Shown one piece after another: positions 33,186 to 63,504 of a stretch of 64,000 nt of DNA (its first letter is position 1; the number at the start of each line of letters is the position of its first letter). Below the pieces are notes generated by a model, which had not been told where the DNA came from, made no database searches, and was given only the letters and a program-made list of their open reading frames with translations. The stretch lies in IMG/VR virus record IMGVR_UViG_3300037991_006036, positions 58,294 to 122,293 of that record, one strand, 5' to 3'. The translations under genes were made by a program, and so were the position numbers. The stretch comes from a virus (Duplodnaviria > Caudoviricetes).

Positions 33186-33214
33186 AATATACAAAATTCA
33201 AATCAAACTATCAA
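33186..33214 (-). promoter_or_regulatory. Host-type promoter TTGATA-N17-TATATT
   Basis: Directly upstream of hpt. Confidence 0.5.
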
Positions 33215-33381
33215 CTTTTAACTTGGATGATTATTTTATCATTGACTCTTTTAACAATAAAATTGGAAGGTACAATGTTTGTGAGATATTCTTCGTAGTA
33301 TGCATTACGATCAAACTTAGGCTTTTTAGGAACCTCAGCCTTAACATATCCGGGTGGCATTATGTCTTTTAGTTTGATCAT
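33211..33381 (-). CDS. 56-aa protein with class-B-like leader (MIKLKDIMPPGYVKAEVPKK...)
   Basis: Manually translated, below the track cutoff. ATGA overlap with the upstream stop; starts MIKLKDI like the other leader proteins. Confidence 0.7.
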   Translation of the reverse strand: MIKLKDIMPPGYVKAEVPKKPKFDRNAYYEEYLTNIVPSNFIVKRVNDKIIIQVKS

Positions 33382-34502
33382 GTTAAATTATAGTATGTCA
33401 TTATATCATTATTAATAGCTGATATGTTAGCTTCCTCTGACGATTTAAAAACAATAGCTTCCATAAACTCAGGACCTGAAGCTTTGTTGCTTTGATCATA
33501 CACAAATTGTCTAGTTTGTGTTTTTGTAAAATCGGTACGTGAAGCTTGCAACACATTGTTTACATAATATGCAGTAGTTCCTGGATCGTTTTGTAATAAT
33601 GTTGTGAAGGTGTATGGTGTATTAGTAGCAAATGTGTTTGTGCTTGTTAATATATTAGTAGGTCCCGTTCTATTAATTAATACAAATTGATCAGTAGTTT
33701 CATCATACTCAATAATAGCGTTATTTGCAAATTGTTTTGGTGACATTGAAACTCCTTCTACAGTAAAACTACCTCCAGGATCTTTTACATTAGTTGTTGT
33801 AAATATAGTTAATGGTTGAGATGCATCAAGATAATCAGAAGCATCTAGTGTAGCTGTTTTGTCTTGTCTCCACGTATTTACTGCTGCTACAAATTCTTTT
33901 CCACCTATTGTTATAGTTTCTAATACTCCATTAGTTACTAACTCATCCATTTGCCCACCAACATTAGCATTTAAGTGTGTCAATGTTTGATCTACTGTTT
34001 GGTTATAAAATTTTTCAATTTCTACAATATCTGCAGAAGGCATTGAATCAGGATTACTATATCCTGGTGCTGCACAAAATTCACCCAACGTTGTAGCTAA
34101 AACACCCGATGTAACTGCTGTTATTGGACTATCTAGTGATGTATAGTTGTTGCTATCAAAGTGTAAATCTGCCTGATCATCGGCAGTTCCTGTCGATCCA
34201 GCAGTACCTCGTCTTCTTATTCTCATTGAGAATCCAGTATAATCTGTTCTGAGTTTTCTAAATGAAGTGGCTAAAAAGGCTGTTGATCTGTTATCTAATA
34301 GAAGACCTCCCGTATCAACACTGCCGTAGGTTCTAGCAAACTGTTGTCTCAGATGCTCTTGATAACGCAAAAACGCTTCTTTTTTTCTTCTTTGATTGCG
34401 AGCATTATTAGCTTTAGAGGCTTCTTGTTCACGAAGCTCATCCTTAAGCGCTTGCTCTCTAGCCCAATCACTATTTCGTAAGTATTTGTTAAAATCTCCC
34501 AT
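33378..34502 (-). CDS. Shared-N-terminus protein with ArabFuranosidase-B-like/lectin domain
   Basis: NQRRKKEAFLRYQ N-module; SFRKLRTDYTGFSMRIRR motif. Confidence 0.65.
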   Translation of the reverse strand: MGDFNKYLRNSDWAREQALKDELREQEASKANNARNQRRKKEAFLRYQEHLRQQFARTYGSVDTGGLLLDNRSTAFLATSFRKLRTDYTGFSMRIRRRGTAGSTGTADDQADLHFDSNNYTSLDSPITAVTSGVLATTLGEFCAAPGYSNPDSMPSADIVEIEKFYNQTVDQTLTHLNANVGGQMDELVTNGVLETITIGGKEFVAAVNTWRQDKTATLDASDYLDASQPLTIFTTTNVKDPGGSFTVEGVSMSPKQFANNAIIEYDETTDQFVLINRTGPTNILTSTNTFATNTPYTFTTLLQNDPGTTAYYVNNVLQASRTDFTKTQTRQFVYDQSNKASGPEFMEAIVFKSSEEANISAINNDIMTYYNLT

Positions 34503-34503
34503 A

Positions 34504-35337
34504 TTATAATTCTGGAATATCTCCTTGTATATCTCCAGCTGTCATATTTTTTAACTCACCATTAAACCCACCGCTTCCATGATCAATTAAATCTGGGAAC
34601 GTGTCACCATCTCCCATTCGATACCATGAGTTTGGAGATAATGACGATAATCCTCCAGGCACTCCTCCATTATACATAGTTGCAAAGTTGGCTGATTGAT
34701 CTGAAGTCCAAAAGGCAGCTTCATCAATTTTTCCTAAAAATCTACCATAAGCACTAATACTCAATCTTAACCCATTGTAAGAAGTATACAGAATTGTCGC
34801 ACCTATAGATACATCACTACCTTGTACACCATTAACCATTCTCTTTAACGTACTTCCATCGTATGCAATGGCAACATGTGTCCACTCATCTTGTCCATTA
34901 CCTGCACCAAGACCTTGTGTTGTTCCATTTATTCTTGCAACAAATTGATTATAGTTCCAATAAATTTCTATTCCTTGATTACCTACACTGTGTGAGCCAT
35001 TTAAGAAAATATTTCTTCTATTAGAAGCTTCTGGCTTAGCCCACACGCTCATTGTTAGAGTTTGCACTTTTCTTGATGCATCAGAACCTAAAATAGCAAA
35101 ATCATTACTTCCATCGAACGCTGTACTGAATTGGTTTACAAAAGACTCTTCACCATAAGCGCTACCATAAGTTTTTGCGAATTGCTGATTTAAGTGTTGT
35201 TGATATCGTAAGAATGCTTCCTTCTTTCTTCGCTGATTTTGTCTTTTCTTAGCGTTAAAAGCCTCCTCCTCTTGCAACTTTTGTTTTGCTGCTAGCTCCC
35301 TAATATAATCTGCATTTCTAAGAAAGTCTCTTGACAT
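34504..35337 (-). CDS. Shared-N-terminus protein with LamG domain
   Basis: Same N-module; FDGSND..TMSVWAK..WTHVAIAYDG..FLGKIDEAAFW..WYRMGDG. Confidence 0.75.
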   Translation of the reverse strand: MSRDFLRNADYIRELAAKQKLQEEEAFNAKKRQNQRRKKEAFLRYQQHLNQQFAKTYGSAYGEESFVNQFSTAFDGSNDFAILGSDASRKVQTLTMSVWAKPEASNRRNIFLNGSHSVGNQGIEIYWNYNQFVARINGTTQGLGAGNGQDEWTHVAIAYDGSTLKRMVNGVQGSDVSIGATILYTSYNGLRLSISAYGRFLGKIDEAAFWTSDQSANFATMYNGGVPGGLSSLSPNSWYRMGDGDTFPDLIDHGSGGFNGELKNMTAGDIQGDIPEL

Positions 35338-35343
35338 AATTAA

Positions 35344-35592
35344 TTATTCTATTGTCCAATCATTTCCAGCTAATCGTGTTAAACATTCCGCATGAGTACC
35401 TCTCCAAGTTAAAGACACACTACCATCAGTAATAAATGTAGGTTCGTTTGCTGTAAACCATTTTAATGTAAATTGTGATTCGTCGACTGATAATCTGACT
35501 GTATCAGCTGATGTTTCCATCACTTGTGAAAAGTCTACCTTATCTATGTCTGTTGCGTTTGCGAATGCGTATGTTCTATCTGAATAATCCAT
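35344..35592 (-). CDS. Small fibre-associated hypothetical protein
   Basis: 82 aa (VDFSQVMETSADTVRLS) between the lectin-domain genes. Confidence 0.6.
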   Translation of the reverse strand: MDYSDRTYAFANATDIDKVDFSQVMETSADTVRLSVDESQFTLKWFTANEPTFITDGSVSLTWRGTHAECLTRLAGNDWTIE

Positions 35593-35594
35593 TA

Positions 35595-36602
35595 CTAATA
35601 AGTTTTGTAATAATTGTTAATATTAGTCTCTATAGCTGCTCTGTCAGTAGTCTTGTCTGCTAAATACATTATTAATTCAACTGGGTTTGCTGCATTATTA
35701 GATAATGCTTTATCGGGATAAAAAGTACTCCCCATTCGTGGAATAGTAGTCTCACTTCCTGATGCTATTTTATTTCCTTCAAAATATAAAGCTGTTTCTC
35801 CTGGTGCTTCATTAACAATAGCTGTTATTGTGTTTAGTGCATCTTGAGTGTGAGTTGCTGATCCTGATATATGACCTATGGTGCCATAAGGAGCATTCGA
35901 CCCTGTTTCAAGAGTTATGACATCACTTACTGTTTCTATTATTTCTTTACCTGCAGTGTGTTCAGCTAAATTTAGATAAAATTGTGATGCTGCATGAGCG
36001 TAGTTGGTTACAAACACTGTATGAGATGTTCCTGGATCTATGTCTTGGAGTCTTGCAGTAGCAGCATATTGTTTGTAAGTTTCGTTTAGATATAAGATAC
36101 TGCCCGAAACATACACATTACCACTTGTATCTGATACGAATAGAGAATTAGATCCAGCATTAATAGAATTTCTCACAGTTCCTTGCGATTGATCATACCA
36201 AGTATGCAATCTTCCCTGATTTCCATCTAAAAATGTACTTAAACTTTGTGTATCTAAATAATTGTCAATAAACCCAATATCCAATTCAGCATCATCAGAA
36301 GCACGTCTTACCCTAATAGCTGAGCCAGTGTAATCAGTACGTAGCTTTCTTAAAGACCATGCTAAATAAACGTCATCTCCATAATCATCTAACAGAAGTG
36401 ATGTTGATCCGCCAGGATTAGATCCTGCAGCCATTGCTCTTGCTGCTAACTCCTGTCGAAGATGTTCTTGATATCGTAAAAACGCTTCTTTTTTTCTTCG
36501 CTGATTTTGTTTCTTTTTAGCCTCAAACGCTTCTTCCTCTTGCAGTTTTTGTTTTGCTGCCCAATCTCGAATATGATCTGCATTTCTGAGAAAGTCTTTC
36601 AT
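35595..36602 (-). CDS. Shared-N-terminus protein with ArabFuranosidase-B-like/lectin domain
   Basis: Same N-module; AWSLRKLRTDYTGSAIRVRRASD..WYDQS..IETNINNYY. Confidence 0.7.
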   Translation of the reverse strand: MKDFLRNADHIRDWAAKQKLQEEEAFEAKKKQNQRRKKEAFLRYQEHLRQELAARAMAAGSNPGGSTSLLLDDYGDDVYLAWSLRKLRTDYTGSAIRVRRASDDAELDIGFIDNYLDTQSLSTFLDGNQGRLHTWYDQSQGTVRNSINAGSNSLFVSDTSGNVYVSGSILYLNETYKQYAATARLQDIDPGTSHTVFVTNYAHAASQFYLNLAEHTAGKEIIETVSDVITLETGSNAPYGTIGHISGSATHTQDALNTITAIVNEAPGETALYFEGNKIASGSETTIPRMGSTFYPDKALSNNAANPVELIMYLADKTTDRAAIETNINNYYKTY

Positions 36603-37471
36603 TTGTCTGATGTGGTTTCTACTACAACTTGTATTTTTGGTTCATAGCCTTGAGGCAGTTTATTTACCAATCCTTTGAAAGTAGAGTTACCAGCATCGTG
36701 TCTGAATTCAAACTTCAGATTATTAAGATCCATCATTACTTGTGATGATGTTGTAAAGCCATAACTGTTATCTCTTCTATATGGATTCATAAATTTATCA
36801 CTATCATGTTGCTTTGATAGTGCATCTAATATGTGTTCTTGTGACGATATATCCGACAATACATCGTATGCAATTTGTTGGCGTGACTTGGATGATTGTC
36901 TTTTTATCCCTCCAGTATATCCAGTATCTGGATAAGCTACACCATGATTTGTTCTTGTGATTGTTTGATCTGGTTGAACACGTTTAATAGTTGGTAAATG
37001 CTTTGTTGTCATTTCAATAATAAAACTATGCTGTGCATTAGATACAATAGTCATTCCTTTAACTCCAACATCATCTTCATCCTCTCCTTTAAAGTTGATT
37101 ATTGAGCGAATTGCTTTTGACAGCTTACCCTGCTCAAGAGCCTTTCTAATCTTTAACCCATCATATGATGGTTTTCCATTTTTACCCTTCTTAGCTTTAT
37201 CCTTAGCAAGGTCACCTTCCTTTTCATCAAAACCAACCATCAAAGAAGCATTAACTATTCCAATCCCATTCTCATTCATCCCTTCACTCCAATCAGTTAA
37301 CACATCTCTCATATATACAACCTCAACACCATCTACTAACTCATGCACTACTTCCAAATCAGGAGCATACATACGATCACGATTCTTTGCAAGAATAGTA
37401 TTACCATCAACACGACAACGTGCAATAACACACTCACTTAAATCGTGAAGAAGATGGCGAAGTTTAATCAT
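36599..37471 (-). CDS. Ntn-hydrolase (NRDE/C45/CBAH-like) with class-B leader
   Basis: Leader MIKLRHLLHDLSE, then CVIA..GNTILAKNRD..SEGMNENGIGI..RTNHG. Confidence 0.75.
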   Translation of the reverse strand: MIKLRHLLHDLSECVIARCRVDGNTILAKNRDRMYAPDLEVVHELVDGVEVVYMRDVLTDWSEGMNENGIGIVNASLMVGFDEKEGDLAKDKAKKGKNGKPSYDGLKIRKALEQGKLSKAIRSIINFKGEDEDDVGVKGMTIVSNAQHSFIIEMTTKHLPTIKRVQPDQTITRTNHGVAYPDTGYTGGIKRQSSKSRQQIAYDVLSDISSQEHILDALSKQHDSDKFMNPYRRDNSYGFTTSSQVMMDLNNLKFEFRHDAGNSTFKGLVNKLPQGYEPKIQVVVETTSDK

Positions 37472-37496
37472 GATCAGCTTTCTAATAAATAGTCAA

Positions 37497-39496: not shown

Positions 39497-40561
39497 TTAC
39501 AAAATTATGTAGTTAACACCAACGCTAAAGTTGTGCCAACTACGATTCCAGTACTTGTTATATTTGCCTTCTAAAAATACTCCAAGGCTCTTATTAAACT
39601 TGTAACCGAAAATCAATCCTCCAGAATAATCAATCCACTGTCCACCATGAAAATTGTGATAAGAATACTCACTTTTAGTTTTCAAATGCACTGGCATTAT
39701 ATTACCCCAAGAATGTAACCAAAAGTTTTTAGTGTAGTGATAAAAGTCAAATCCTATTACCATCGAATAATTCCATTGTGGCGGTAGAGCACTTCTTTCG
39801 CTATCAGTGTAATCAGCTAACACTTCCGGAATTACAACTGCTTCCCACACTTGAGTATTTTCAGCTACTAGATCGCCAGCTGGATTGTAATAAGTAGTGC
39901 CGCCATTTCCATCAAACTCAATTGTATATCCTTCTTGTAATGCAAGTTGTGTGTAATGTAAATTGCCATTTGGTAACATCCAATCTTCTAATGGATTGTA
40001 TCCATATGGTTCAGATATACGTTGTACTGCTCCAATATTAAATGATAATTTTTCTCCAATTTTTTGTCTAAATCTTTCAGACGCTTCAAAGTATTGAATG
40101 TCTGCAAATCCGTCTTGTAAATACTCTACTTTAGCTATCCATCGCTTAGCTACATACCTCAAAAAATGATCTTGATTAAAAAATGAGATGCCTTGCTGTC
40201 TTGTCCAATCTGCTTCAAATAAGAATTCAAATCCATTTATCTTACCTATTGTAGCAGCATCACCATATGACTTTTCTGTTCCATCATAAAACACATTAGC
40301 TCTATTTTCATATCCAAATCTTGCAATCTTTCTTACACCAACTGCAACTGAATAATCAAAAGGTGTAGCTATAGTTTCTTTTGTTAAACCATTACTAACT
40401 GAATATACATCTACATCTGAAACAGAGTTACCTCCAGTTACTGCACCATAAAAAGTTGAATATTTGAATAACTTTTTAAGACCTGTCTTAAATTTAGATG
40501 GTTCTTTTTGACTAAAAAGAAGTGTAGGTATTAGTAAAAATATTAGTAACAGTCTTTTCAT
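39497..40561 (-). CDS. Exported protein, probable outer-membrane beta-barrel
   Basis: Signal peptide; aromatic-rich alternating strands; C-terminal FSVGVNYIIL. Confidence 0.6.
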   Translation of the reverse strand: MKRLLLIFLLIPTLLFSQKEPSKFKTGLKKLFKYSTFYGAVTGGNSVSDVDVYSVSNGLTKETIATPFDYSVAVGVRKIARFGYENRANVFYDGTEKSYGDAATIGKINGFEFLFEADWTRQQGISFFNQDHFLRYVAKRWIAKVEYLQDGFADIQYFEASERFRQKIGEKLSFNIGAVQRISEPYGYNPLEDWMLPNGNLHYTQLALQEGYTIEFDGNGGTTYYNPAGDLVAENTQVWEAVVIPEVLADYTDSERSALPPQWNYSMVIGFDFYHYTKNFWLHSWGNIMPVHLKTKSEYSYHNFHGGQWIDYSGGLIFGYKFNKSLGVFLEGKYNKYWNRSWHNFSVGVNYIIL

Positions 40562-43284: not shown

Positions 43285-43594
43285 CCTTGCTGTTACTGTT
43301 TTTACTGCTAAGTACCTTGCCAATTTCAGCGATACCAAAACTGCCTAACGTCACTATTAAAAACGAATTATAAATAAACTCTGATATGACCAAGTGATTA
43401 CCTGCCACACCAGTTACAATATCAGTGATAGCAAATATTGCCATCATACCAAATGACAAAAAACCGACAATTGTCTTCTCATTAATGCCATTATCATCCT
43501 TAAAAATATCTCTAAAAGCCATAAATTTTCTATTTAAGAACATCGTAATTCTTGAAACCTTTATAGCGTTATATAACCTTTTAAAGATGCTCAT
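43253..43594 (-). CDS. Two-TM membrane protein
   Basis: INEKTIVGFLSF..LGSFGI; first gene after the late motif at 43601-43608. Confidence 0.65.
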   Translation of the reverse strand: MSIFKRLYNAIKVSRITMFLNRKFMAFRDIFKDDNGINEKTIVGFLSFGMMAIFAITDIVTGVAGNHLVISEFIYNSFLIVTLGSFGIAEIGKVLSSKNSNSKDDEKVSEEEF

Positions 43595-44744: not shown

Positions 44745-44746
44745 AT

Positions 44747-45112
44747 TTATGAGAATTCATCAAATAAGTCTACTACTTTTTCCTCTTCTGCTTTGCTTAG
44801 AGGTCCATCATCAAACATGCCTGATATGTCATAATCACTTTCACCTTTAAGAGTAAGCTCACCTTCGTGAGATTTGCCTGCTGCATCCACATAGATGAAT
44901 TCTATCCTGGTACCCATAGCATATTTATCTTCAGCCATCTCTACTGCGTCAGCATAAATATCATTATCTAATTCCGTAGGTTTAGGAAACTGCATATCAG
45001 TACTTCCGTTATCCATACGTGAGATTAAAATTGTGTTTGGTTGAGCTATTGCTTCATTGAGACCAGCGATCTCCATCAGCCTTTTTCTTGTAAAATATTT
45101 ATTCATTTTCAT
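44747..45112 (-). CDS. Class-A leader protein
   Basis: MKMNKYFTRKRLMEIAGLNE plus acidic body. Confidence 0.8.
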   Translation of the reverse strand: MKMNKYFTRKRLMEIAGLNEAIAQPNTILISRMDNGSTDMQFPKPTELDNDIYADAVEMAEDKYAMGTRIEFIYVDAAGKSHEGELTLKGESDYDISGMFDDGPLSKAEEEKVVDLFDEFS

Positions 45113-45117
45113 TGAAT

Positions 45118-45447
45118 TTATAGTTGTATTGCTTCAGTAGCTTTTTTTAATGACATTGCGTTTATCGATGGGTCTTTCTTTTTCATATAAGCAATCAATT
45201 GTTCAAACCATTCTACCTCATACTCATCGTTAGATGCCCAATCTCCAGACTCTAAACTTGCTATAACGTCAGCCGGTTTTGCTGGTTCTTCTCTCATTGA
45301 TTCATCAGCTGTTTGTTCATCAAAGTTATCTGGATTAATATCTAGTAAATTTTCAATTACACCATATCCTGCATCTTGATCTGCTACTTCGTTGATTGGC
45401 AATCCTGCCATCTCCATTAGTCTTTTTTTTGTAAAATATTTACTCAT
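45118..45447 (-). CDS. Class-A leader protein
   Basis: MSKYFTKKRLMEMAGLPINE plus acidic body. Confidence 0.8.
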   Translation of the reverse strand: MSKYFTKKRLMEMAGLPINEVADQDAGYGVIENLLDINPDNFDEQTADESMREEPAKPADVIASLESGDWASNDEYEVEWFEQLIAYMKKKDPSINAMSLKKATEAIQL

Positions 45448-45734
45448 TTTTCTAGTATTGCTATTAATCGTTTATGGCCCTCTTCAGCACCAGTTTTATC
45501 TCCTCGTTTCAAAGCGTCGATAACATCACTCAAAGCTGAAGCTTCAGTGTGATAGTTAACATCAGTTGCGCTGTCTTCTACTTTTTCAAGTTCAGCAACG
45601 TCAGCAGTCTGTACATCAATATTCTTCATATACTCTATCATGCCATCGTAATCAAAATTACTAGCCCATCTTTGGCCAGGCTGAAAAGTCTCCTTGAGAC
45701 CCGCTAATTGTTTAAATCTACTTTTACTTATCAT
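45444..45734 (-). CDS. Class-A leader protein
   Basis: MISKSRFKQLAGLKE plus acidic body. Confidence 0.8.
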   Translation of the reverse strand: MISKSRFKQLAGLKETFQPGQRWASNFDYDGMIEYMKNIDVQTADVAELEKVEDSATDVNYHTEASALSDVIDALKRGDKTGAEEGHKRLIAILEK

Positions 45735-45982
45735 AGGTAATCTCTTAAACCGTATTCGGATTGTTGCATTGGATTAGCTTTAAAGAAAGTCTTTAACTCC
45801 TCACGAGCTTGATCCATCTTTTCTTCGTAGTCAGGACCATCTAGCTCCTCTGGCATATCTACATCAGTTAACTCAAACGCTGATGACATATCGTCAGCTA
45901 AGAATTCATCAATAGCATCCTCAAGTTGCATATCAGTCATTGACTCGTTAATGTGTTGTGGTATAAGGTCTCTCAGTTTCAT
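45731..45982 (-). CDS. Class-B-like leader protein, very acidic
   Basis: MKLRDLIPQHINE plus D/E-rich body. Confidence 0.8.
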   Translation of the reverse strand: MKLRDLIPQHINESMTDMQLEDAIDEFLADDMSSAFELTDVDMPEELDGPDYEEKMDQAREELKTFFKANPMQQSEYGLRDYL

Positions 45983-46134
45983 AAGCTATCTTCTTTTTTA
46001 ACGTATATTAGTTTTTCACGAATCTTATCCCAGATCGTGTAATCCAGTTTATCTTTAGGTAATCCGTCCAGATAGCCTTTCAGCCACGTTACGAATTCTT
46101 CTGGAGTAATATCGGTTGTGTTATTTCCTGCCAT
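45979..46134 (-). CDS. 51-aa hypothetical protein (MAGNNTTDITPEEFVTWLKGYLDG...)
   Basis: Manually translated; fills the gap, with an ATGA overlap to the next gene. Confidence 0.65.
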   Translation of the reverse strand: MAGNNTTDITPEEFVTWLKGYLDGLPKDKLDYTIWDKIREKLIYVKKEDSL

Positions 46135-46137
46135 GGT

Positions 46138-46482
46138 TTACTTAGTTATAAAATCATCATATACACCTTGATCAATACCATCCTCTAACCACTGAGCACC
46201 ATTATTACCTAACCATATCTCTAAATCTTCTCGCATTGTTTCCGCAAGTTTTTGCTGCTGTGCTTTATCGTTAGGATCCATTATAATGTTAGCATCCATC
46301 TCTTCAGCAGATGTTAGAAAATACTCAACAGCTCTTTCAAACATCACTGTCATTTCAACATCACCTCCTGCTGCAGAAGGAATAACTTTAGCATTAGACT
46401 CCTTTAGATTCTCTTGTTTAGGTTCAACAAAAGGATTGTTGATAGCGGCTAACTCTTGAAGCCTTTTCTTAGTTGTTTTCAT
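46138..46482 (-). CDS. Class-A leader protein
   Basis: MKTTKKRLQELAAINN..NLKE. Confidence 0.8.
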   Translation of the reverse strand: MKTTKKRLQELAAINNPFVEPKQENLKESNAKVIPSAAGGDVEMTVMFERAVEYFLTSAEEMDANIIMDPNDKAQQQKLAETMREDLEIWLGNNGAQWLEDGIDQGVYDDFITK

Positions 46483-47042
46483 TATTCTTCGTTTTCCGTT
46501 TCTTTTTCTCCTTCGAGTGATTCAATAGCATCTCTTACAAGAGAAGTAAAGAATCCATGAATAGCATCATTACTATATCCAGCATCAACTTGATCTGCGA
46601 TCATCTTTTCAAGTGCTTGATCTAATAGATTAAAAGCAGCCTTATCAGAGTCTTGTCGCATAGTCATGATTGTACCAGCTTGACGTGATATAAGGTTTTC
46701 CGCTTCTTCCTCAAAACTCTCACTTAGAGCCGTGGCGCGTTCTAACATTAAGCCGCCGTATTTTTCGACCCCTTGAAATTGGTCAGTGGGCACGATATCC
46801 ATAAGACGGAATCCCCCTTGTATCGCTCCTCCAAGCATGTCAAGGACTTCTTGCCTATCGTTTGTCTTTAGTGGCCCGACAGTGAAGTCTTGACCTAATA
46901 CTCTATATACAGCAATATACCCCTTATGCTTCTTGTATTGGTTAGCACTTACGTTATTATTGTAATTGAGTTTAGCATTATCTGCTTTGGGATCTTCTTT
47001 AAGACCCGCCATCTCCATTAATCGTTGTTTGGTTAGTTTCAT
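46482..47042 (-). CDS. Class-A leader protein, two modules
   Basis: MKLTKQRLMEMAGLKE; internal MLE..LSE linker. Confidence 0.8.
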   Translation of the reverse strand: MKLTKQRLMEMAGLKEDPKADNAKLNYNNNVSANQYKKHKGYIAVYRVLGQDFTVGPLKTNDRQEVLDMLGGAIQGGFRLMDIVPTDQFQGVEKYGGLMLERATALSESFEEEAENLISRQAGTIMTMRQDSDKAAFNLLDQALEKMIADQVDAGYSNDAIHGFFTSLVRDAIESLEGEKETENEE

Positions 47043-47044: not shown

Positions 47045-47365
47045 TTATAGCAATTTTCCTAATGCACTCATGTCCATAAGTGTTTGGATGTCTTTATATA
47101 TTTTTATCTCGTTCTGTATAGCCATTAGATTTTCCGATTGATTTCTGGGATCACCTTTTACTACTTTAGCTACCTCTTCGAGATCCTTAATTAGACCGGG
47201 AAGGTTATCTGCTAATGCATAGTATCCATCCTCTAAAGACTGAGCTACCATACCAATTTCATCATAATCGATTATGGCTGATAATGGCTCTGGATCATTA
47301 GGATTAGTGAGACCTAATTGTATCTCCTTAATACCCGCTAATTCTTGTAGTCTGCTTTTTTTCAT
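47045..47365 (-). CDS. Class-A leader protein
   Basis: MKKSRLQELAGIKE. Confidence 0.8.
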   Translation of the reverse strand: MKKSRLQELAGIKEIQLGLTNPNDPEPLSAIIDYDEIGMVAQSLEDGYYALADNLPGLIKDLEEVAKVVKGDPRNQSENLMAIQNEIKIYKDIQTLMDMSALGKLL

Positions 47366-47366: not shown

Positions 47367-47573
47367 TTATCTTATATCATGCTTTTCTAGGACCTCCATA
47401 ACAATAGGAATCATGTTTGCACTTAATAAAGAACCTCCTCTATTATTCTGCTCTATTACTGCATCCATAATCTCCTGCGCTAAGGTTTCTTGAAATTTCC
47501 CTGAGCCCAAGGAGTGAACACTTACGGGTGCTTCCTTAATATTAGCTAATTCTTGTAATCTACTCTTCTTCAT
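47367..47573 (-). CDS. Class-A leader protein (start corrected to 47573)
   Basis: MKKSRLQELANIKE; TAA-T-ATG junction. Confidence 0.8.
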   Translation of the reverse strand: MKKSRLQELANIKEAPVSVHSLGSGKFQETLAQEIMDAVIEQNNRGGSLLSANMIPIVMEVLEKHDIR

Positions 47574-47574: not shown

Positions 47575-47820
47575 TTACTGTATGTTTCCAGATCCGTCCT
47601 CTGGGATAATTGCATTTAAAAAGTTAAGGACATCACCTTTATCAAACCCCTCTGCATACCACCCGTCTAATAGCTTATCCATAGAGTCGATCATTTTCTT
47701 GTATTGTGCTACATCAGCCATACCCTCCATCCTAGATACTAGTTCTCTGAAGTATGGTGTATTAGTGTTTTGCTGATACTCCTTGATGTTAGCTAACTCC
47801 ATTAATCTACTCTTTTTCAT
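47575..47820 (-). CDS. Class-A leader protein
   Basis: MKKSRLMELANIKE. Confidence 0.8.
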   Translation of the reverse strand: MKKSRLMELANIKEYQQNTNTPYFRELVSRMEGMADVAQYKKMIDSMDKLLDGWYAEGFDKGDVLNFLNAIIPEDGSGNIQ

Positions 47821-47821: not shown

Positions 47822-48025
47822 TTATCTTACTTTATGTTTTTCCATGATTGCAGCTGCTAAGTCATAGAATAGAGGATAGTCTACTGATCCGCCTGATAAA
47901 GCACCACCTTCTTCCTCGTCTTTCTGAACCAACTCTACTAGCTCATCGGCAATTGTTTTAATCTTGAGGTTATATCCATCGACTTCATTTAACCCTGCTA
48001 ACTCTTGCAATCTGCTCTTTTTCAT
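47822..48025 (-). CDS. Class-A leader protein
   Basis: MKKSRLQELAGLNE; body resembles 47367..47573 (GG[AS]L..EKHxxR). Confidence 0.8.
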   Translation of the reverse strand: MKKSRLQELAGLNEVDGYNLKIKTIADELVELVQKDEEEGGALSGGSVDYPLFYDLAAAIMEKHKVR

Positions 48026-48243
48026 ATAGAGATTTTTTTTGTAATTTTTTTTTGGAAGACCTCCTGGTAGGAGGGTAGTCCCTTTATTATATAAGTAGTC
48101 ACCATTTCTTTAATACATTCAACAATACGAAGTATTGGTGATGTGTCTAAATTTCTATAGCAAAAAAATTGGCATCCAAATGTGTGTGCATTTAATTTTT
48201 GTAATATCGGCCCTAACCTACTGGTTTTCACGGTATTATAACA

Positions 48244-59050: not shown

Positions 59051-59581
59051 CTATGCTTTGACTGATTTTATTATAATATCTGGATATTTGTCTTGAAGCT
59101 TTGCTACTGCATCTACATTCTTCTGAGAATCATCTATAAAGAATATCTTGTTATAACCTTTCTTGATTTCCTTTTCAATATACTCAGCTTTCTTTTGTGG
59201 ATTAGAGTCACCTACTGGTACAATGTATGGGTCAATGTTGTGTTGTGTCTTGAAGAAATGCTTCATTGGATATCCCATTGCACGTGCTGTTAGTATAGTG
59301 ACTTTGTTTTGTGCATTAGACATAGCTTTCTTCAGCATCTTCATGTTACGATCAATAGTCTGTGGATTCTTTAACATGCTGTTAAAATCTTTCCAATCAA
59401 ACTTATCACCTGGCTCCTCTTCGTACTTGGCATACTCAGCTGGATCCAAAGTTAATTTAGTTCCATCTGCTTTTGTTATGTATATGTAAGATTCAGATGT
59501 AGCTAATGTATCATCAAAGTCAAATATGACAAGTCGTTTGCCAAGTTGCTTTTCGTTTAATATTTCAGCTAGTTTGATCAT
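59051..59581 (-). CDS. HAD-superfamily phosphatase with class-B leader
   Basis: MIKLAEILNE; FDFDDTL, ILTAR, K, FIDDS motifs. Confidence 0.85.
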   Translation of the reverse strand: MIKLAEILNEKQLGKRLVIFDFDDTLATSESYIYITKADGTKLTLDPAEYAKYEEEPGDKFDWKDFNSMLKNPQTIDRNMKMLKKAMSNAQNKVTILTARAMGYPMKHFFKTQHNIDPYIVPVGDSNPQKKAEYIEKEIKKGYNKIFFIDDSQKNVDAVAKLQDKYPDIIIKSVKA

Positions 59582-60645
59582 CCCTTCTTCCAGCCTCCTC
59601 CAGCTGCTTTGTATTTTTTAGCTGCCCATGCATTAGCATAAGCACTTGGATAAACATCAAATTTCTTCTTAGCTTGTGACTTGTAATATGACCATTTTGA
59701 TGGATTAGTTGGTACATTCTTTTCTAAAAATAACTCCAACTTTTCATGTAGCTTGTTACTCATTTCGTTTGCTTTAGTTTTTACTCTAATAGGTTTACGT
59801 CCTTGTCCTGGTTGTTTCTTTCCTCCTCTACCAGCTTTATTTTGTGCTGCTCGTTTTCTACGAGTAGCTGATTCTTTTTCTTTCTTACTCATGGTTCTTG
59901 CTTTAGCAGCAGGAACACACTTAGCATATCCTCTCTTCTTACCACTTGTTCCACATTCTGGATGCTTACCAGATTTATCCTTCTTTCCAATATTCACCCA
60001 CTTCTGTTTGAACCACTTACGAAGATCTTCTGAGAGCTCTACTTTCTTGAGTTTGTCTTGATTTTTCATATACCAATCTAACCAGGTTTTTTTGATTTCA
60101 TTCCAATCTGCATCTTTGTGATGTTGAAAGTTTAGTATATTTTCCTTTTGCCAATCATCCATCACTTGATCGAGTGTTTGTTTTTTGTATCTCGCTCTTG
60201 TTATAAAACCCTTAACATAAGCAGGCACTTCAACAGCACTTGTTAAGTATCCTTGATAAGTGTCATGGTCTTTGTCAGATCCTGTGACTATAAACATATC
60301 ATCAAAATTCTGTTGTCCAACATGCTCAAGCTCGTGTCTAACCGACTCTCTAATCTCTGCAATAAAGTCATTCATAGCTGCTGGGAACATTTTTGGGTTA
60401 TACTCTATATCTAAGGTTAGCTTATCCGAAGATCCTCCTCCAGTTATTGAGTGTGAGTATTCTTGATTAGGTCTTTTGTGAAACTTTGCAACTAAATCAA
60501 ACTCTGCTTCTTCATCACCTCGCTCTATCACATACATCTCTTTGAAGTTTCTTTTATTCTTAAACGCATCAACAATGTCTTTAGATATCATCTTGGTATA
60601 TGAATCAAATATTCCTTCGTACAGTATATCTTTCAGCTTACTCAT
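59578..60645 (-). CDS. Modular class-B leader protein: HExxH domain plus basic DUF5872-like modules
   Basis: MSKLKDILYE; RHELEH..EVPAY; LSE-DLRKWFKQKWV; YPSAYANAW. Confidence 0.75.
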   Translation of the reverse strand: MSKLKDILYEGIFDSYTKMISKDIVDAFKNKRNFKEMYVIERGDEEAEFDLVAKFHKRPNQEYSHSITGGGSSDKLTLDIEYNPKMFPAAMNDFIAEIRESVRHELEHVGQQNFDDMFIVTGSDKDHDTYQGYLTSAVEVPAYVKGFITRARYKKQTLDQVMDDWQKENILNFQHHKDADWNEIKKTWLDWYMKNQDKLKKVELSEDLRKWFKQKWVNIGKKDKSGKHPECGTSGKKRGYAKCVPAAKARTMSKKEKESATRRKRAAQNKAGRGGKKQPGQGRKPIRVKTKANEMSNKLHEKLELFLEKNVPTNPSKWSYYKSQAKKKFDVYPSAYANAWAAKKYKAAGGGWKKG

Positions 60646-61232
60646 TTCTTTTTTCCACTCTTCATGTTAGCACACCAATGATACATCTTACCTCTTTCAC
60701 CACCATACTTCTTAGCTCTTGCTCGCAAATCAGTTACTGATCCTTTACAACTAGCTCCTGCACGTTTGACTCTACCTGGACGACTCTTGCCTTTCTTTTT
60801 TCCATCTTTGAAGTTTTCAGAAACTGCTTCATATTTTTTCCAATTCTCTTCTGCTTTCAGAGCTTCTTTTTCATATGGATGATTTGTGTAGTTAAATCCT
60901 TTATCATAAAACTCTTTAAACTTTGCTTGGTCTTGTAGTGTGTGTGTATGTTCATGCAATAAGGATCTAATAATATTTTCTTCAGTTATCATTAGTTCTG
61001 AATATAAATATATGATGTTATCGTATGGATCATATTCAGCATCTGGATTACCTTCTTCTCGTTTTAGATCCTCAACTGCAACTGCACCTAATCTATCCCA
61101 TATGTTTGGATGAACCTCAACTGGCTTAGCTTGTCCACCTAAGTCTTTAACTATTTGTGGATACACTCTATCAACAATCTTCTTGATCTCGCTCTCAGTC
61201 ACTTCTTTCAATATGTCTTTTAGCTTAATCAT
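60642..61232 (-). CDS. Class-B leader protein: HExxH metallopeptidase-like domain plus basic C-module
   Basis: MIKLKDILKE; LLHEHTH..PYEKEA; VSE-NFKDGKKKGKSRPGR. Confidence 0.75.
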   Translation of the reverse strand: MIKLKDILKEVTESEIKKIVDRVYPQIVKDLGGQAKPVEVHPNIWDRLGAVAVEDLKREEGNPDAEYDPYDNIIYLYSELMITEENIIRSLLHEHTHTLQDQAKFKEFYDKGFNYTNHPYEKEALKAEENWKKYEAVSENFKDGKKKGKSRPGRVKRAGASCKGSVTDLRARAKKYGGERGKMYHWCANMKSGKKK

Positions 61233-62230
61233 TTTGTTTGCCTCTCTCTATCTGTAGGATATAGTTGAAAGTAATCATCGTATGCTCTGTATCTGTAGCT
61301 GTTGTTTAACTTGGGTAGTTGCTTCTTTATGTATGCTGAGTATAGCTTTCCTCTTTTGCTAGAGGTTCCATACTCTGATTCATCCTCCTCAACCTTCGGT
61401 TCAATATTAATCTCATGTATTACGAAATACTCATCCCACTCATTGATCCATTGCAATACGATAGCTACTATTGTAGCCATCACTCTGTATTGTTCATGCA
61501 TGTTAGTCATCCTCATCTTATTGTCTATTTTACCAAAAGACTTAGTATAGAAATCAACGCCAACTTCGAGACCTTCTTGTTCATAATCTCCATCTGAATC
61601 ATATTCAATCTTTACAATATATTCAGTTCCCTTATCTGTTTTAAATTGAAAATTAGAATCTCCTAGATAAGCAGTAGTCGATCCACCACCATATCGTTGC
61701 TGTTTAAACTCAGCAGGAGTCCACATGATGTTGTTGAGGGATTGTTCTTTCCAATCATATGGTTTGATAGATGCATCTCCTATCTCTTTCAACATAGGCA
61801 TGAGCTTAGTCATATCTGCTCTATCAACTGGCATCTCTTCTTTTCCTACTTCCTTATCATCAGTAGGAATATCCTCATACATACTGATCGTATCTCCTGA
61901 CATCTCCCAAGGACCCCAATGCTTTGCTTTGAGTATCCATTTTAGTGATTCATCTGTATTGTAGTATTTGTTATCCTCCTTACGAACACCTCCAATAGCA
62001 TAGTATAAATCTTTAGGTACTTCTAACTTTTTTCCATTAGAGTGATCTAATACTGTATCGTTTGTTTCTACCCAAGCATGACCAAATCTCTTACCTTCCA
62101 ATGCTCCTTGTCCATTCACCATTCCATGCACTAGTGTGTGATCACCACGTAACTTTGTCATAAGTCTGCCAGCTGCTTGATAACAATCTCCAGTTGCAAC
62201 TTCTAGTAATATGTTGTTAAGTTTGATCAT
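61229..62230 (-). CDS. Class-B leader protein: Cys/His (papain/transglutaminase-like) domain plus second domain
   Basis: MIKLNNILLE; GDCY..LVHG..GHAWVE..D; internal LKE-IGD. Confidence 0.7.
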   Translation of the reverse strand: MIKLNNILLEVATGDCYQAAGRLMTKLRGDHTLVHGMVNGQGALEGKRFGHAWVETNDTVLDHSNGKKLEVPKDLYYAIGGVRKEDNKYYNTDESLKWILKAKHWGPWEMSGDTISMYEDIPTDDKEVGKEEMPVDRADMTKLMPMLKEIGDASIKPYDWKEQSLNNIMWTPAEFKQQRYGGGSTTAYLGDSNFQFKTDKGTEYIVKIEYDSDGDYEQEGLEVGVDFYTKSFGKIDNKMRMTNMHEQYRVMATIVAIVLQWINEWDEYFVIHEINIEPKVEEDESEYGTSSKRGKLYSAYIKKQLPKLNNSYRYRAYDDYFQLYPTDRERQTK

Positions 62231-62430
62231 TCAAATTTTCTTCTATACTTTGCACGTTGATCTTCTAGTACATACTCAACTACATCTCTTTTACCGCAAT
62301 GTGGACAATTCAAATGCTCAATGTTTTCAGCTTCATTAATCTTCCACTCTCCTTTGCAGGAGCTACACTTATAAATGTATGTGTGTCGGATAAATACTTT
62401 GTGGCTCATATCTGTGTGTCGGGATACCAA
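62227..62430 (-). CDS. Zinc-ribbon protein
   Basis: CSSC..CPHC; true start probably MSHK. Confidence 0.65.
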   Translation of the reverse strand: MVSRHTDMSHKVFIRHTYIYKCSSCKGEWKINEAENIEHLNCPHCGKRDVVEYVLEDQRAKYRRKFE

Positions 62431-62458
62431 TCGTTGTCATCCCATTCGTCTGGTTGAT

Positions 62459-62932
62459 TCATTTTATTGGTCCTCCTCCGACCCAAGCATCGCAAGATCT
62501 AGCTCCTGCACACTTGAACCAAAAGAATTCACAGAAACCTATATTTGCATTTTTAACTATCGTTTTGCCATCTGGTCCTATGGCTTTTTCAATTTTATTG
62601 AGTGTAGCTTTCTTCTGATCAAATGCTCCACAATTACCACACCTTGATTGTTTAGCAGCTTCTACTGTAGTATTCCACAGCTCAGCTTTATCTTCCCAAA
62701 AAGGTTCAGATCCTTTTTCGTCATCTGGATTGAGTGGTCCATAACTATATTCTTTGATTGTACGATTTCTGTTTAGAGTATTAAGATCTAAATCAGTAAT
62801 CGAATCCTCAGGCTTACCATCTTTGTTACCAATCTCCTTTTCTTTTTTCAAAGCAGCTGGAGTATTGTATCCATCATAATCTGATAACTTTCCTTCAAGG
62901 ACAATGTCTTTTACTATTCCTTTGAGTTTCAT
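62459..62932 (-). CDS. Cys-rich protein with class-B-like leader
   Basis: MKLKGIVKDIVLE; RCGNC..FCE..KC..CDAW metal-binding pattern. Confidence 0.75.
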   Translation of the reverse strand: MKLKGIVKDIVLEGKLSDYDGYNTPAALKKEKEIGNKDGKPEDSITDLDLNTLNRNRTIKEYSYGPLNPDDEKGSEPFWEDKAELWNTTVEAAKQSRCGNCGAFDQKKATLNKIEKAIGPDGKTIVKNANIGFCEFFWFKCAGARSCDAWVGGGPIK

Positions 62933-63504
62933 TAGAATTTACCTATCATTATTTTAGTTACCGGCTGTCCATTAATCTGTCTTGTGTACCATCCATTTCC
63001 AGGTTTGTTGCCTTTAGGATGTTTTCCATGCCATGTTGTCTCTTTAGATCTTCTATCACCTAATACTTTACGTACTTGTGCTTCATCTTCTACTACTGGA
63101 ACACCTCCTCTACCTACAAACGTATCGAAAGCAGCACCTGACACTTCTACATAGTTTCCAGGCTTCTTGAGTTCAGCTGACTTCTTTGTTAAAAGGTTTT
63201 TGATATTCCCTCGTTCACCGTCATGTCCCATTCCAGTGTGTTTAACTCCAAATGGTGTTTCTTTTCCAAAATACACTACATCAATCTCAGGATCTGCATC
63301 CAAGTCAGCAACTCTCCAGAATTTGAGATTTGGATCTGTCATCTTATCTGGACTCTTGTATTTGAGATGTCCTCCAATAGGAGCATAGGCATTTGCAACA
63401 AGGTTATAGAGATCTTGTTTTAGATCATCCACGTCTGCGCTTGTTGGCTCTACATATTTACCTTTAGGTAAATCTAATTCTTTTAGAATGTCTTTCAGTT
63501 TCAT
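62932..63504 (-). CDS. Class-B leader protein, unknown function
   Basis: MKLKDILKE; first gene after the late motif. Confidence 0.8.
   Translation of the reverse strand: MKLKDILKELDLPKGKYVEPTSADVDDLKQDLYNLVANAYAPIGGHLKYKSPDKMTDPNLKFWRVADLDADPEIDVVYFGKETPFGVKHTGMGHDGERGNIKNLLTKKSAELKKPGNYVEVSGAAFDTFVGRGGVPVVEDEAQVRKVLGDRRSKETTWHGKHPKGNKPGNGWYTRQINGQPVTKIMIGKF

What the first reader, a model, noticed from the sequence alone, without database searches (positions are those of the whole stretch)
33211..63504. Probable capsid-cargo addressing system: about 18 unrelated proteins share one of two short Glu-terminated leaders
Seen, class A: KxRLxE[LMI]A[GN]xxE or a close variant starts 9 genes in 44747-48025. 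Seen, class B: M(I)KLx[DE]ILxE or a variant starts 63504 (MKLKDILKE), 62932 (MKLKGIVKDIVLE), 62230 (MIKLNNILLE), 61232 (MIKLKDILKE), 60645 (MSKLKDILYE), 59581 (MIKLAEILNE), 45982 (MKLRDLIPQHINE), 37471 (MIKLRHLLHDLSE) and 33381 (MIKLKDIM.., no clear terminal Glu). The bodies after the Glu are unrelated. Each block follows the late-promoter motif used by the tail genes (63518; variants at 48090 and 37484), and none of the early-block genes carries a leader. Known: T4 internal proteins are packaged via a ~10-aa N-terminal capsid-targeting sequence removed by prohead protease gp21, which cuts after Glu in [LIV]-x-E. Inference: this phage uses a generalised, portable tag to load a diverse payload into the head for maturation and delivery. 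The prohead protease is not in this window.
Basis: partly seen in the sequence, partly recalled or inferred. Interest (0 to 1): 0.92.

Follow-up and report, generated by a model that had tools for sequence, protein, structure and literature searches.

The report
Capsid-loading leader tags on phage proteins
An uncultured T4-like phage of Bacteroidota starts at least 18 unrelated proteins with one of two short peptides ending in aliphatic-x-Glu, which most likely load them into the phage head and are then cut off by the head protease, as in phage T4 but on a much larger scale.

Summary
Nine genes at 44747-48025 start with a class A peptide (R-L-x-E-L-A-G-L-x-E type). Nine genes start with class B (MIKLKDILKE type). 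The protein bodies are unrelated, and conservation is at peptide level, not DNA level.

The record, of which the window is the 3' half, encodes a T4 gp21-type (S77) prohead protease. Class B has the length of the T4 capsid-targeting sequence and is conserved at positions 4, 7, 8 and 10, where targeting and processing were mapped in T4.

Three results place a functional boundary right after the leader Glu:
- Gene 36599-37471 is a Cys-Ntn hydrolase whose nucleophile, Cys14, directly follows that Glu.
- HAD orthologues without a leader begin at that same point.
- One cargo protein (61229-62230) carries an internal leader copy at a module junction.

Both leaders are common in IMG/VR. Class B heads at least 60 body families there, including an ART-PolyVal ADP-ribosyltransferase, a zeta-type kinase, a Nudix enzyme and an exonuclease. 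One body family carries either leader.

Packaging, cleavage and injection have not been measured, and class A is less secure than class B. This is a new variant of the known T4 system. The scan has reported similar leaders on other phage DNA before.

The parts
62932..63504 (-). Class B cargo gene, 190 aa, starts MKLKDILKE; first gene of the six-gene class B array
   Evidence: The exact promoter-like motif lies 21 nt upstream. Body pI 9.1. No Pfam or PHROG match.
62459..62932 (-). Class B cargo gene, 157 aa, extended leader MKLKGIVKDIVLE
   Evidence: 97% identical orthologue in G001.
61229..62230 (-). Class B cargo gene, 333 aa, starts MIKLNNILLE; two modules joined by an internal leader copy
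61784..61813 (-). Internal leader copy MTKLMPMLKE (aa 140-149 of the 333-aa protein), directly before the IGDAS module
   Evidence: In relative G001 the IGDAS module is a separate gene that starts MIKLKDILYE then IGDAS. BLASTP aligns its residue 1 with residue 140 here, E 7e-33.
60642..61232 (-). Class B cargo gene, 196 aa, starts MIKLKDILKE; HExxH motif and a basic tail
   Evidence: Only a weak PHROG match.
59578..60645 (-). Class B cargo gene, 355 aa, starts MSKLKDILYE; HExxH motif and a Lys/Arg-rich C-terminal half (pI 9.7)
59051..59581 (-). Class B cargo gene, 176 aa, starts MIKLAEILNE; HAD-type phosphatase (DxDxT motif)
   Evidence: Pfam DUF2608 and Hydrolase, PHROG 415. Orthologues occur with this leader, with another leader, or starting M-GKVLRVFDFDD with no leader.
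47822..48025 (-). Class A gene, 67 aa, starts MKKSRLQELAGLNE; acidic body
47575..47820 (-). Class A gene, 81 aa, starts MKKSRLMELANIKE
47367..47573 (-). Class A gene, 68 aa from the internal ATG, starts MKKSRLQELANIKE
   Evidence: The longer 82-aa ORF from 47615 places the motif 14 residues further in.
47045..47365 (-). Class A gene, 106 aa, starts MKKSRLQELAGIKE
46482..47042 (-). Class A gene, 186 aa, starts MKLTKQRLMEMAGLKE
46138..46482 (-). Class A variant, 114 aa, starts MKTTKKRLQELAAINN; no Glu at the usual place
   Evidence: An orthologue with the same variant is in L181.
45731..45982 (-). Class B gene inside the class A array, 83 aa, starts MKLRDLIPQHINE
45444..45734 (-). Class A gene, 96 aa, starts MISKSRFKQLAGLKE
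45118..45447 (-). Class A gene, 109 aa, starts MSKYFTKKRLMEMAGLPINE
   Evidence: Homologue of 198 aa in G001.
44747..45112 (-). Class A gene, 121 aa, starts MKMNKYFTRKRLMEIAGLNE
   Evidence: Orthologue in L181.
36599..37471 (-). Class B-tagged Cys-Ntn hydrolase precursor, 290 aa: MIKLRHLLHDLSE then Cys14
   Evidence: AlphaFold model pLDDT 86, with residues 1-11 below 50. VIA-align Z 16-20.5 to IAT, NAAA, acid ceramidase, bile salt hydrolase and penicillin V acylase, with model residue 14 aligned to the first residue of the mature chains. In the homologues where the invariant Cys could be located, the residue before it is Glu, with one Asp.
33211..33381 (-). Class B-like start without the terminal Glu, 56 aa, MIKLKDIMPPGYVKAE
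   Evidence: Orthologues keep the same Glu-less form.
63518..63526 (-). Promoter-like motif CTATTTATA ahead of the class B array
   Evidence: The same motif lies 11-40 nt upstream of the portal, terminase and many large virion-module genes of this record (functions of the others not assigned). TATTTATA or ATATTTAT is the top upstream 8-mer in four relatives.
37484..37492 (-). Promoter-like motif CTATTTATT ahead of the Ntn hydrolase gene
48090..48098 (-). One-mismatch variant CTACTTATA, 73 nt upstream of the class A array
   Evidence: weak

Best explanation
The two leaders are N-terminal propeptides of the T4 capsid-targeting type.

Proposed steps:
1. The tagged proteins are made together with the head proteins.
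2. The leader docks them onto the scaffolding core of the prohead.
3. The phage's gp21-family protease cuts after the Glu of the terminal aliphatic-x-Glu when the prohead matures.
4. The trimmed proteins stay in the head and enter the next cell with the DNA.

Basis for each step:
- Shown here: the shared leaders; their peptide-level conservation and portability; the protease gene; the match of class B to the functional positions of the T4 sequence; and a functional boundary exactly after the Glu.
- Inferred by analogy: docking to the core, cleavage by this particular protease, retention in the head, and injection.

The cargo in this window is nine small acidic proteins (class A) and nine class B proteins. 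Class B includes two HExxH proteins with basic tails, a HAD phosphatase, and a Cys-Ntn hydrolase that can only become active once its leader is removed.
For: 1. The record encodes a Peptidase_S77 (T4 gp21) protease, E 4e-28. The motifs around the T4 catalytic His, Ser and Asp are conserved. It sits in a T4-order head module with gp20-like portal and gp23-like capsid genes.

2. T4 ipII and ipIII start MKTYQEFIAE and T4 gp24 starts MAKINELLRE. Class B MIKLKDILKE is also 10 residues, with hydrophobic residues at 4, 7 and 8 and Glu at 10. In T4, targeting maps to residues 4 and 7 and processing to 8 and 10 (PMC9026906).

3. In sets not selected for Glu, 49 of 83 MKL or MIKL starts have Glu exactly two residues after the hydrophobic pair, against a 7.2% background. 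Information content falls to background after position 10.

4. Class A is otherwise different, yet ends in the same aliphatic-x-Glu in 8 of 9 genes.

5. The capsid proteins of this phage and five relatives have [LV]-x-E then G or A aligned with the T4 gp23 cleavage site. Several start with class B-like peptides.

6. The Ntn hydrolase nucleophile Cys14 directly follows the leader Glu. The Glu-Cys junction holds in the homologues where the Cys could be located (one has Asp), whatever the length of the propeptide.

7. HAD orthologues without a leader begin exactly where the leader ends.

8. A leader copy sits at the module junction of 61229-62230.

9. One body family carries class A in L212 and class B in L325, L281, L253 and L208.

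10. In L113, class A-type and class B-type small genes lie between portal and scaffold, around the protease, where T4 has genes 67 and 68.

11. All four IMG/VR records that are at least 90% complete and carry the class A core have an S77 protease.

12. Tagged relatives include an ART-PolyVal ADP-ribosyltransferase (E 1e-27), a zeta-toxin-type kinase, a Nudix enzyme and an RNase T exonuclease. T4 Alt is a packaged, gp21-trimmed ADP-ribosyltransferase (PMC5694885; PMC5512222).

Against: - No virion proteome, N-terminal sequencing or expression data exist for this phage or a close relative. The MA9V-1 paper has only an SDS gel.
- Ntn hydrolases usually process themselves, so the Glu-Cys junction proves a required cut but not who makes it.
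- At least 60 body families, many of them ordinary-looking cytoplasmic enzymes, is far beyond anything shown for T4. That could point to a broader role for the tag.
- Class A has no studied counterpart.
- The same HAD enzyme is untagged in G004, which has the protease, so tagging is optional.
- Gene 33381 has no Glu end, and 46482 lacks it at the usual position.
- The promoter-motif link is direct for only two units in the window. It was not enriched on leader genes in the relatives.
Confidence: 0.68

Rival explanations
1. The leaders are propeptides removed by proteolysis (by the phage protease or by the proteins themselves) to time or gate activity. They do not address proteins to the capsid, and the proteins act in the cell where they are made.
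For: The Ntn hydrolase is a clear zymogen. Many tagged proteins are ordinary enzymes such as HAD, Nudix and kinases. The HAD enzyme also works without a tag in G004.
Against: In T4, gp21 is built into the prohead core and cuts its known substrates (core proteins and the gp23, gp24, Alt and IP propeptides) once core and shell are assembled (PMC5694885). The conserved positions 4 and 7 are the T4 targeting positions, not the processing positions. Small acidic proteins of 53-170 aa have no obvious need for a zymogen form.
Confidence: 0.12
2. The leaders are uncleaved N-terminal docking helices. They bind one common partner outside the capsid, for example a host factor, a membrane or a phage hub protein.
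For: Both leaders are short and charged, with hydrophobic residues at positions 4, 7 and 8 in class B. Class A matches no known capsid-targeting sequence. Gene 33381 keeps the leader start but has no Glu end.
Against: The Ntn hydrolase cannot work with the leader attached. Two unrelated leaders share only the aliphatic-x-Glu end. HAD forms without a leader start at the Glu boundary. Conservation stops exactly at the Glu.
Confidence: 0.1
3. The leaders are recognition sequences for a modifying enzyme, as in RiPP-like systems.
For: An earlier follow-up of this scan favoured such a reading for a different 16-17-residue phage tag.
Against: The record, about 71% complete, has no radical-SAM match. 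Three of five complete or near-complete genomes that carry these leaders have none. The other two have only one weak hit of about 270-290 aa each, and only one of them reaches the Pfam cut-off. All five have the S77 protease.
Confidence: 0.03
4. The shared starts are a nucleic-acid feature: a translation-initiation element, or a recombination cassette that shuffles genes.
For: The starts are A/T-rich. Neighbouring class A genes are tightly packed. Array content differs between this phage and G001, which is about 80% identical.
Against: Synonymous codons vary freely while the amino acids are kept, and the upstream DNA is not conserved. The pattern is rare and scattered in 596 Gb of cellular genomes, which include Bacteroidota. 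An internal copy occurs in mid-protein.
Confidence: 0.03

Closest known systems
Phage T4 capsid-targeting sequence (CTS) on internal proteins IPI, IPII, IPIII, and the N-terminal propeptides of Alt and gp24, all removed by prohead protease gp21 (Mullaney and Black 1996, as reviewed in PMC9026906, PMC3012670, PMC5694885)
   Same: A roughly 10-residue peptide at Met1 on otherwise unrelated proteins. Hydrophobic residues at positions 4, 7 and 8 and Glu at 10. A gp21-family protease in the genome. Capsid protein propeptides end in the same motif. Cargo includes small acidic and basic proteins and, in relatives, an ADP-ribosyltransferase.
   Different: The host phylum and phage lineage are far from the T-even phages. 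There are two interchangeable leader classes, and possibly a third. The record has 18-20 tagged genes, against a handful in T4, and the wider group has at least 60 body families. Cargo includes enzymes such as a protease-gated Ntn hydrolase and a HAD phosphatase. No cargo is homologous to the T4 internal proteins. Nothing has been shown experimentally.
Propeptide processing of head and ejection proteins in giant phages phiKZ, 201phi2-1 and SPN3US (cut after Glu in S/A/G-x-E or A-x-E; PMC5694885)
   Same: Many head-internal proteins are trimmed after Glu by a gp21-related protease. Paralogues share identical N-terminal propeptides. Propeptides can contain several sites.
   Different: Those proteases belong to family S80 and prefer a small residue at P3, whereas here P3 is aliphatic as in T4. 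Their propeptides are long and diverse, not one short portable tag.
Polyvalent proteins of phages and conjugative elements (Iyer et al. 2017, PMC5512222)
   Same: Sets of enzymatic effector domains predicted to be packaged and delivered with the DNA. An ART-PolyVal domain and a zeta-type kinase carry the class B tag in relatives. Gene 61229-62230 joins two modules.
   Different: Here most effectors are separate genes, each with its own tag. Where modules are fused, the junction is a copy of the tag.
Cys-Ntn hydrolases (isopenicillin N acyltransferase, NAAA, acid ceramidase, bile salt hydrolase, penicillin V acylase)
   Same: Same fold, and the nucleophile Cys must be the free N-terminal residue.
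   Different: The propeptide is the phage's class B leader, and the residue before Cys is Glu (one Asp) preceded by aliphatic-x. This fits cutting by the head protease rather than, or as well as, self-processing.

Membership tests
T4-type capsid-targeting sequence / gp21-processed propeptide | The genome encodes a gp21-family (Peptidase_S77) prohead protease with conserved catalytic His, Ser and Asp regions | tested here: met
   PF03420 E 4e-28 at record 36125-36589; PHROG 207; alignment with T4 gp21
T4-type capsid-targeting sequence / gp21-processed propeptide | A roughly 10-residue peptide at the very N-terminus with hydrophobic residues at positions 4 and 7 (targeting determinants in T4) | tested here: met
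   Class B: Leu at 4 and Ile, Leu or Val at 7 in eight of the nine window genes; 62932 (MKLKGIVKDIVLE) deviates. T4 mapping from PMC9026906. Class A does not have this layout.
T4-type capsid-targeting sequence / gp21-processed propeptide | Processing determinants: an aliphatic residue two before a Glu at the end of the leader | tested here: met
   Class B: 8 of 9, either at position 10 or after a 3-4-residue extension. Class A: 8 of 9. Glu at that position in 49 of 83 unselected leaders against a 7.2% background.
T4-type capsid-targeting sequence / gp21-processed propeptide | The same leader on otherwise unrelated proteins | tested here: met
   Bodies unrelated by BLASTP. 128 tagged proteins in IMG/VR form 60 clusters.
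T4-type capsid-targeting sequence / gp21-processed propeptide | The leader is necessary and sufficient for incorporation into the prohead, and the protease removes it there | not testable with these tools
   Needs virion mass spectrometry or leader-reporter fusions.
T4-type capsid-targeting sequence / gp21-processed propeptide | Cargo is delivered into the host cell with the DNA | not testable with these tools
   Needs infection experiments.
T4 internal proteins IPI, IPII, IPIII (sequence family) | Cargo bodies homologous to the T4 internal proteins | tested here: not met
   No Pfam or PHROG family of internal head proteins matched any of the 18 proteins. These are therefore not members of those protein families; only the leader logic is shared.
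Cys-Ntn hydrolase (gene 36599-37471) | Ntn fold with the nucleophile as the first residue of the mature chain | tested here: met
   Z 16-20.5. Model residue 14 aligns with Cys103 of mature IAT, residue 126 of human NAAA chain B, residue 143 of acid ceramidase, Cys2 of bile salt hydrolases and Cys1 of penicillin V acylase. Cys14 is invariant in 36 aligned homologues.
Polyvalent proteins | Two or more disparate effector domains in one polypeptide, encoded with virion genes | tested here: inconclusive
   Gene 61229-62230 has two modules, one of which is a separate gene in G001, but neither module has a named domain. ART-PolyVal was found only in a tagged relative.
RiPP-like leader recognised by a radical-SAM enzyme | A partner radical-SAM enzyme encoded in the same genomes | tested here: not met
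   No PF04055 match in this record. Absent from 3 of 5 complete or near-complete leader-bearing genomes; the other two have one weak hit each, only one reaching the Pfam cut-off.
Sec or lipoprotein signal peptide | An uncharged hydrophobic core of about 10 or more residues after a basic start | tested here: not met
   The leaders carry Asp, Glu or Lys throughout. True lipoprotein-like starts in the same genomes (MKKLFSLLICVL type) are visibly different.

The most novel reading that the evidence does not exclude
Across a large group of uncultured aquatic T4-like phages, short leaders that can be read from the sequence mark the full set of proteins delivered with the DNA. The classes are interchangeable, and the system also works as a protease-gated switch that keeps dangerous enzymes, such as the Ntn hydrolase, inactive until they are inside a head. 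If so, the arrays of small acidic class A proteins would be injected inhibitors of host defences, comparable to T4 IPI. The leaders could then be used to list anti-defence candidates directly from metagenomes.
Probability: 0.3. Interest if true: 0.8.

Novelty: new variant of a known kind. Interest (0 to 1): 0.6.

Why it matters
In T4, proteins that ride in the head are the phage's first responders against host defences. They are hard to recognise from sequence because they evolve fast. If these leaders work as in T4, a simple sequence rule would identify the packaged proteins of a large group of uncultured phages of Bacteroidota and other aquatic bacteria. That list covers dozens of families, including ADP-ribosyltransferases, kinases, Nudix enzymes, nucleases and a protease-gated Ntn hydrolase.

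The rule would also supply new short tags for loading foreign proteins into phage heads. It would show that the T4 mechanism is old and widely used, not a peculiarity of coliphages.

Tried and rejected
- DNA searches of the window against isolated phages found nothing near. The best distant hit covered only the protease gene, in Flavobacterium phage immuto.
- Pfam, PHROG and PDB sequence searches left most cargo bodies unnamed.
- I looked for an isolate that could serve as a model. Immuto has only a few such leaders. Chryseobacterium phage MA9V-1 has the Ntn hydrolase with L-N-E before the Cys, but only an SDS gel has been published.
- I tried to show that HAD orthologues without a leader come from phages without the protease. 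This failed: the untagged form is in G004, which has the protease.
- I tested whether leader genes are enriched for the promoter-like motif in four relatives. They are not, probably because the genes sit in operons, so timing remains open.
- The close relative G001 could not show the class A array, because its contig ends inside that region.
- A tblastn search with the 355-aa cargo protein found only its small basic module, in pelagiphages and a cyanophage.
- A literature search for the leader strings found no paper.

Full report
**Setting**

The window is the 3' half of a 122,293-bp IMG/VR record that is about 71% complete. All long ORFs lie on the minus strand.

The 5' half of the record holds a T4-order head module: terminase, gp20-like portal (PHROG 213), a gp21-like protease (Pfam PF03420 E 4e-28, PHROG 207), a scaffold-like gene and a gp23-like capsid gene (PHROG 138). 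The protease aligns with T4 gp21, and the segments around the catalytic His, Ser and Asp are conserved.

The host is very likely a member of Bacteroidota:
- A 926-aa protein in the window ends in a type IX secretion sorting domain.
- The nearest isolates infect Flavobacterium and Chryseobacterium.

A six-frame scan of the whole record with a class A expression finds nine matches. Every one lies at the start of one of nine ORFs between 44747 and 48025. Shuffled translations give none.

Class B starts six consecutive genes at 59051-63504, and also genes at 45982, 37471 and 33381. One more class B gene lies outside the window at record 44226-44633.

After the leader the proteins are unrelated by BLASTP, apart from one marginal pair.

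The leaders differ at many synonymous sites, and the DNA upstream of the start codons is not conserved. Selection therefore acts on the peptide. This excludes a DNA repeat, a promoter cassette or a translation element.

**What the leaders look like**

Class B is M-(I)-K-L-x-x-[IL]-[LIV]-x-E. T4 ipII and ipIII both start MKTYQEFIAE, and T4 gp24 starts MAKINELLRE. All three are ten residues long, with hydrophobic residues at 4, 7 and 8 and Glu at 10.

A review of the T4 work reports that targeting depends mainly on residues 4 and 7 and processing on residues 8 and 10. It also reports that Asp at 10 blocks processing but not targeting (PMC9026906). These are the positions kept in class B.

I checked this in gene sets not selected for the Glu. 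Among 83 MKL or MIKL starts, 49 have Glu exactly two residues after the hydrophobic pair, against a background of 7.2%. Most of the rest have a 3-5-residue extension that again ends in aliphatic-x-Glu. Information content drops to background after position 10.

Class A is longer and different: a basic start followed by R-L-x-E-L-A-G-[LI]-x-E. It ends in the same aliphatic-x-Glu in eight of nine genes.

The capsid protein of this phage and of five relatives has [LV]-x-E followed by Gly or Ala, aligned with the T4 gp23 cleavage site. Several of these capsid proteins begin with class B-like peptides such as MKINNILNE.

**A boundary exactly after the Glu**

Three independent results place a functional boundary there.

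1. Gene 36599-37471 is a Cys-Ntn hydrolase.
   - Its model (pLDDT 86, residues 1-11 disordered) matches isopenicillin N acyltransferase, NAAA, acid ceramidase, bile salt hydrolases and penicillin V acylase at Z 16-20.5.
   - In these alignments model residue 14 pairs with the first residue of the mature chains: Cys103, residue 126 of human NAAA chain B, residue 143 of acid ceramidase, Cys2 and Cys1.
   - Such enzymes need the nucleophile as the free N-terminus, so the protein must be cut between Glu13 and Cys14.
   - In the 111 listed homologues where the invariant Cys could be located, the residue before it is Glu (one has Asp), mostly preceded by aliphatic-x. This holds whether the propeptide is a 12-19-residue class B leader or a 90-100-residue extra domain. 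The Chryseobacterium phage MA9V-1 homologue reads L-N-E then Cys.

2. Orthologues of the HAD phosphatase (59051-59581) come in three forms:
   - with a class B leader (for example MIKLKSLLNE then RKALYVFDFDD);
   - with a different leader that also ends in aliphatic-x-Glu;
   - with no leader, starting M-GKVLRVFDFDD, that is, where the predicted mature protein starts.

3. The 333-aa protein 61229-62230 contains MTKLMPMLKE at residues 140-149, directly before a module that begins IGDAS. In the close relative G001 that module is a separate gene starting MIKLKDILYE then IGDAS, and BLASTP aligns its first residue with residue 140.

**Portability and spread**

IMG/VR was scanned for the class A core. 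Of 82 matches, 53 were at ORF starts, on many different bodies. All four of those records that are at least 90% complete have an S77 protease.

The 128 distinct proteins recovered fall into 60 BLAST clusters. The same pattern in 596 Gb of cellular genomes gave 86 scattered stretches, all but one with a single match.

Two complete 172-kb and 183-kb genomes carry both leader classes.

One body family has class A in one contig and class B in four others.

In contig L113, class A-type and class B-type small genes sit between portal and scaffold on either side of the protease, where T4 has genes 67 and 68.

Tagged proteins in relatives include an ART-PolyVal ADP-ribosyltransferase (E 1e-27), a zeta-toxin-type kinase, a Nudix enzyme and an RNase T-type exonuclease. 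T4 Alt is a packaged ADP-ribosyltransferase trimmed by gp21 (PMC5694885). Polyvalent-protein domains are predicted to be delivered with the DNA (PMC5512222).

**The cargo in this window**

- The nine class A bodies are small (53-170 aa) and acidic (pI 4.1-5.1). They have no family match.
- The class B bodies are mixed. Two have HExxH motifs and strongly basic tails. One is the HAD phosphatase and one is the Ntn hydrolase.
- The Ntn hydrolase gene lies just downstream of a holin gene and an amidase endolysin gene, but has its own promoter-like motif.

**Expression**

The motif C[TA]ATTTAT[AT] lies 11-40 nt upstream of the portal, terminase and many large virion-module genes. It also lies upstream of the first gene of the class B array, of the Ntn hydrolase gene, and of a 753-aa gene upstream of the window. 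TATTTATA or ATATTTAT is the most frequent upstream 8-mer in four relatives.

The class A array has only a one-mismatch copy 73 nt upstream. Leader genes in the relatives are not enriched for the motif. Co-expression with head genes is therefore plausible but not shown.

**Rivals**

- A nucleic-acid element is excluded by the synonymous variation.
- A signal peptide is excluded by the charged residues throughout the leaders.
The record has no such enzyme, and three of five complete or near-complete leader-bearing genomes lack one, while all five have the protease.
- An uncleaved docking helix does not fit the Ntn hydrolase or the HAD forms without a leader.
- Cleavage without capsid targeting cannot be excluded by sequence. 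It sits poorly with the conserved positions 4 and 7, and with the fact that in T4 gp21 is built into the prohead core and cuts its known substrates there.

**Limits**

Nothing here measures packaging, cleavage or injection. Ntn hydrolases normally process themselves, so the junction shows that a cut is needed, not which enzyme makes it. Class A has no experimental counterpart. The number and ordinariness of the tagged enzymes may mean the tag has a wider role. The HAD enzyme is untagged in a relative that has the protease.

**Novelty**

The mechanism is the T4 capsid-targeting sequence. The literature already suggests it as a general way for T4-like phages to load varied proteins.

New here:
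- the distant lineage;
- two interchangeable leader classes;
- the size and enzymatic nature of the cargo set;
- the leader-masked Ntn hydrolase.

No paper in the library contains these leader strings. The scan itself has reported similar leader systems on other phage DNA.

Noticed in passing
window 43668-44744 and 19346-19777; L113:1076-12770: There is a possible third N-terminal leader type: basic and rich in charged and aliphatic residues, of the form K-x-[LI]-x-x-I-[IV]-x-E-E-V, followed by aliphatic-x-Glu. It starts seven small genes in the head module of contig L113 (RKLKRIIREEV type). It resembles the starts of two genes in this window (MKKKEIQNIVNEEV and MKAVDFAKILKEIIKKEV).
   Followed up: partly
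L124, L133, L182, L183; L107, L120, L126, L171: In other IMG/VR contigs the class A core (RLRE[LM]AGIKE) lies inside ORFs 150-900 codons long, about 57-90 residues before the stop. It is followed by either a KPDF-x-D-V-D-x-D-G-D-K-K-E segment or a Gly/Ala-rich segment. This may be an internal cleavage site that releases a small C-terminal piece.
   Followed up: no
window 33378-36602: Three neighbouring proteins (374, 277 and 335 aa) share an N-terminal segment (DFLRNAD.IR..AAKQKLQEEEAF). One has a ConA-like Laminin_G_3 domain. They look like exchangeable lectin-type virion proteins.
   Followed up: no
window 40558-43338: A 926-aa phage protein ends in a type IX secretion C-terminal sorting domain (Por_Secre_tail, E 3e-9). 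It sits between the class A array and the lysis genes.
   Followed up: no
window 33211-33381: This 56-aa gene keeps the class B start (MIKLKDIM) but has no aliphatic-x-Glu end, and its orthologues are the same. In T4, a leader with Asp in place of Glu at position 10 is still targeted but not cut. This protein could be a tagged but uncleaved case.
   Followed up: partly
window about 44400-50500 compared with G001 (L087-L095): The 165.6-kb contig of the closest relative ends on both sides inside the region that matches the class A array and the AAA ATPase gene. The array could not be compared. The repeated leaders may have broken that assembly.
   Followed up: partly
window 59051-63504 compared with G001:8609-14438: The class B array holds six genes here and nine in a relative that is about 80% identical. 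Whole tagged genes have been gained, lost or fused, so cargo turns over quickly behind a constant leader.
   Followed up: partly
record 46813-49074 (L084:4813-7074), outside the window: A 753-aa protein with its own promoter-like motif starts MNELSKFLVESILNE, with two aliphatic-x-Glu sites in the first 15 residues. It has no Pfam match. It may be a further large tagged protein.
   Followed up: no
whole record and relatives G001, G004, G013, G017: The promoter-like motif upstream of the virion genes reads TATTTATA on the coding strand. From memory of the T4 literature, not checked here, the T4 late promoter is TATAAATA; if so, this motif is its reverse complement.
   Followed up: no
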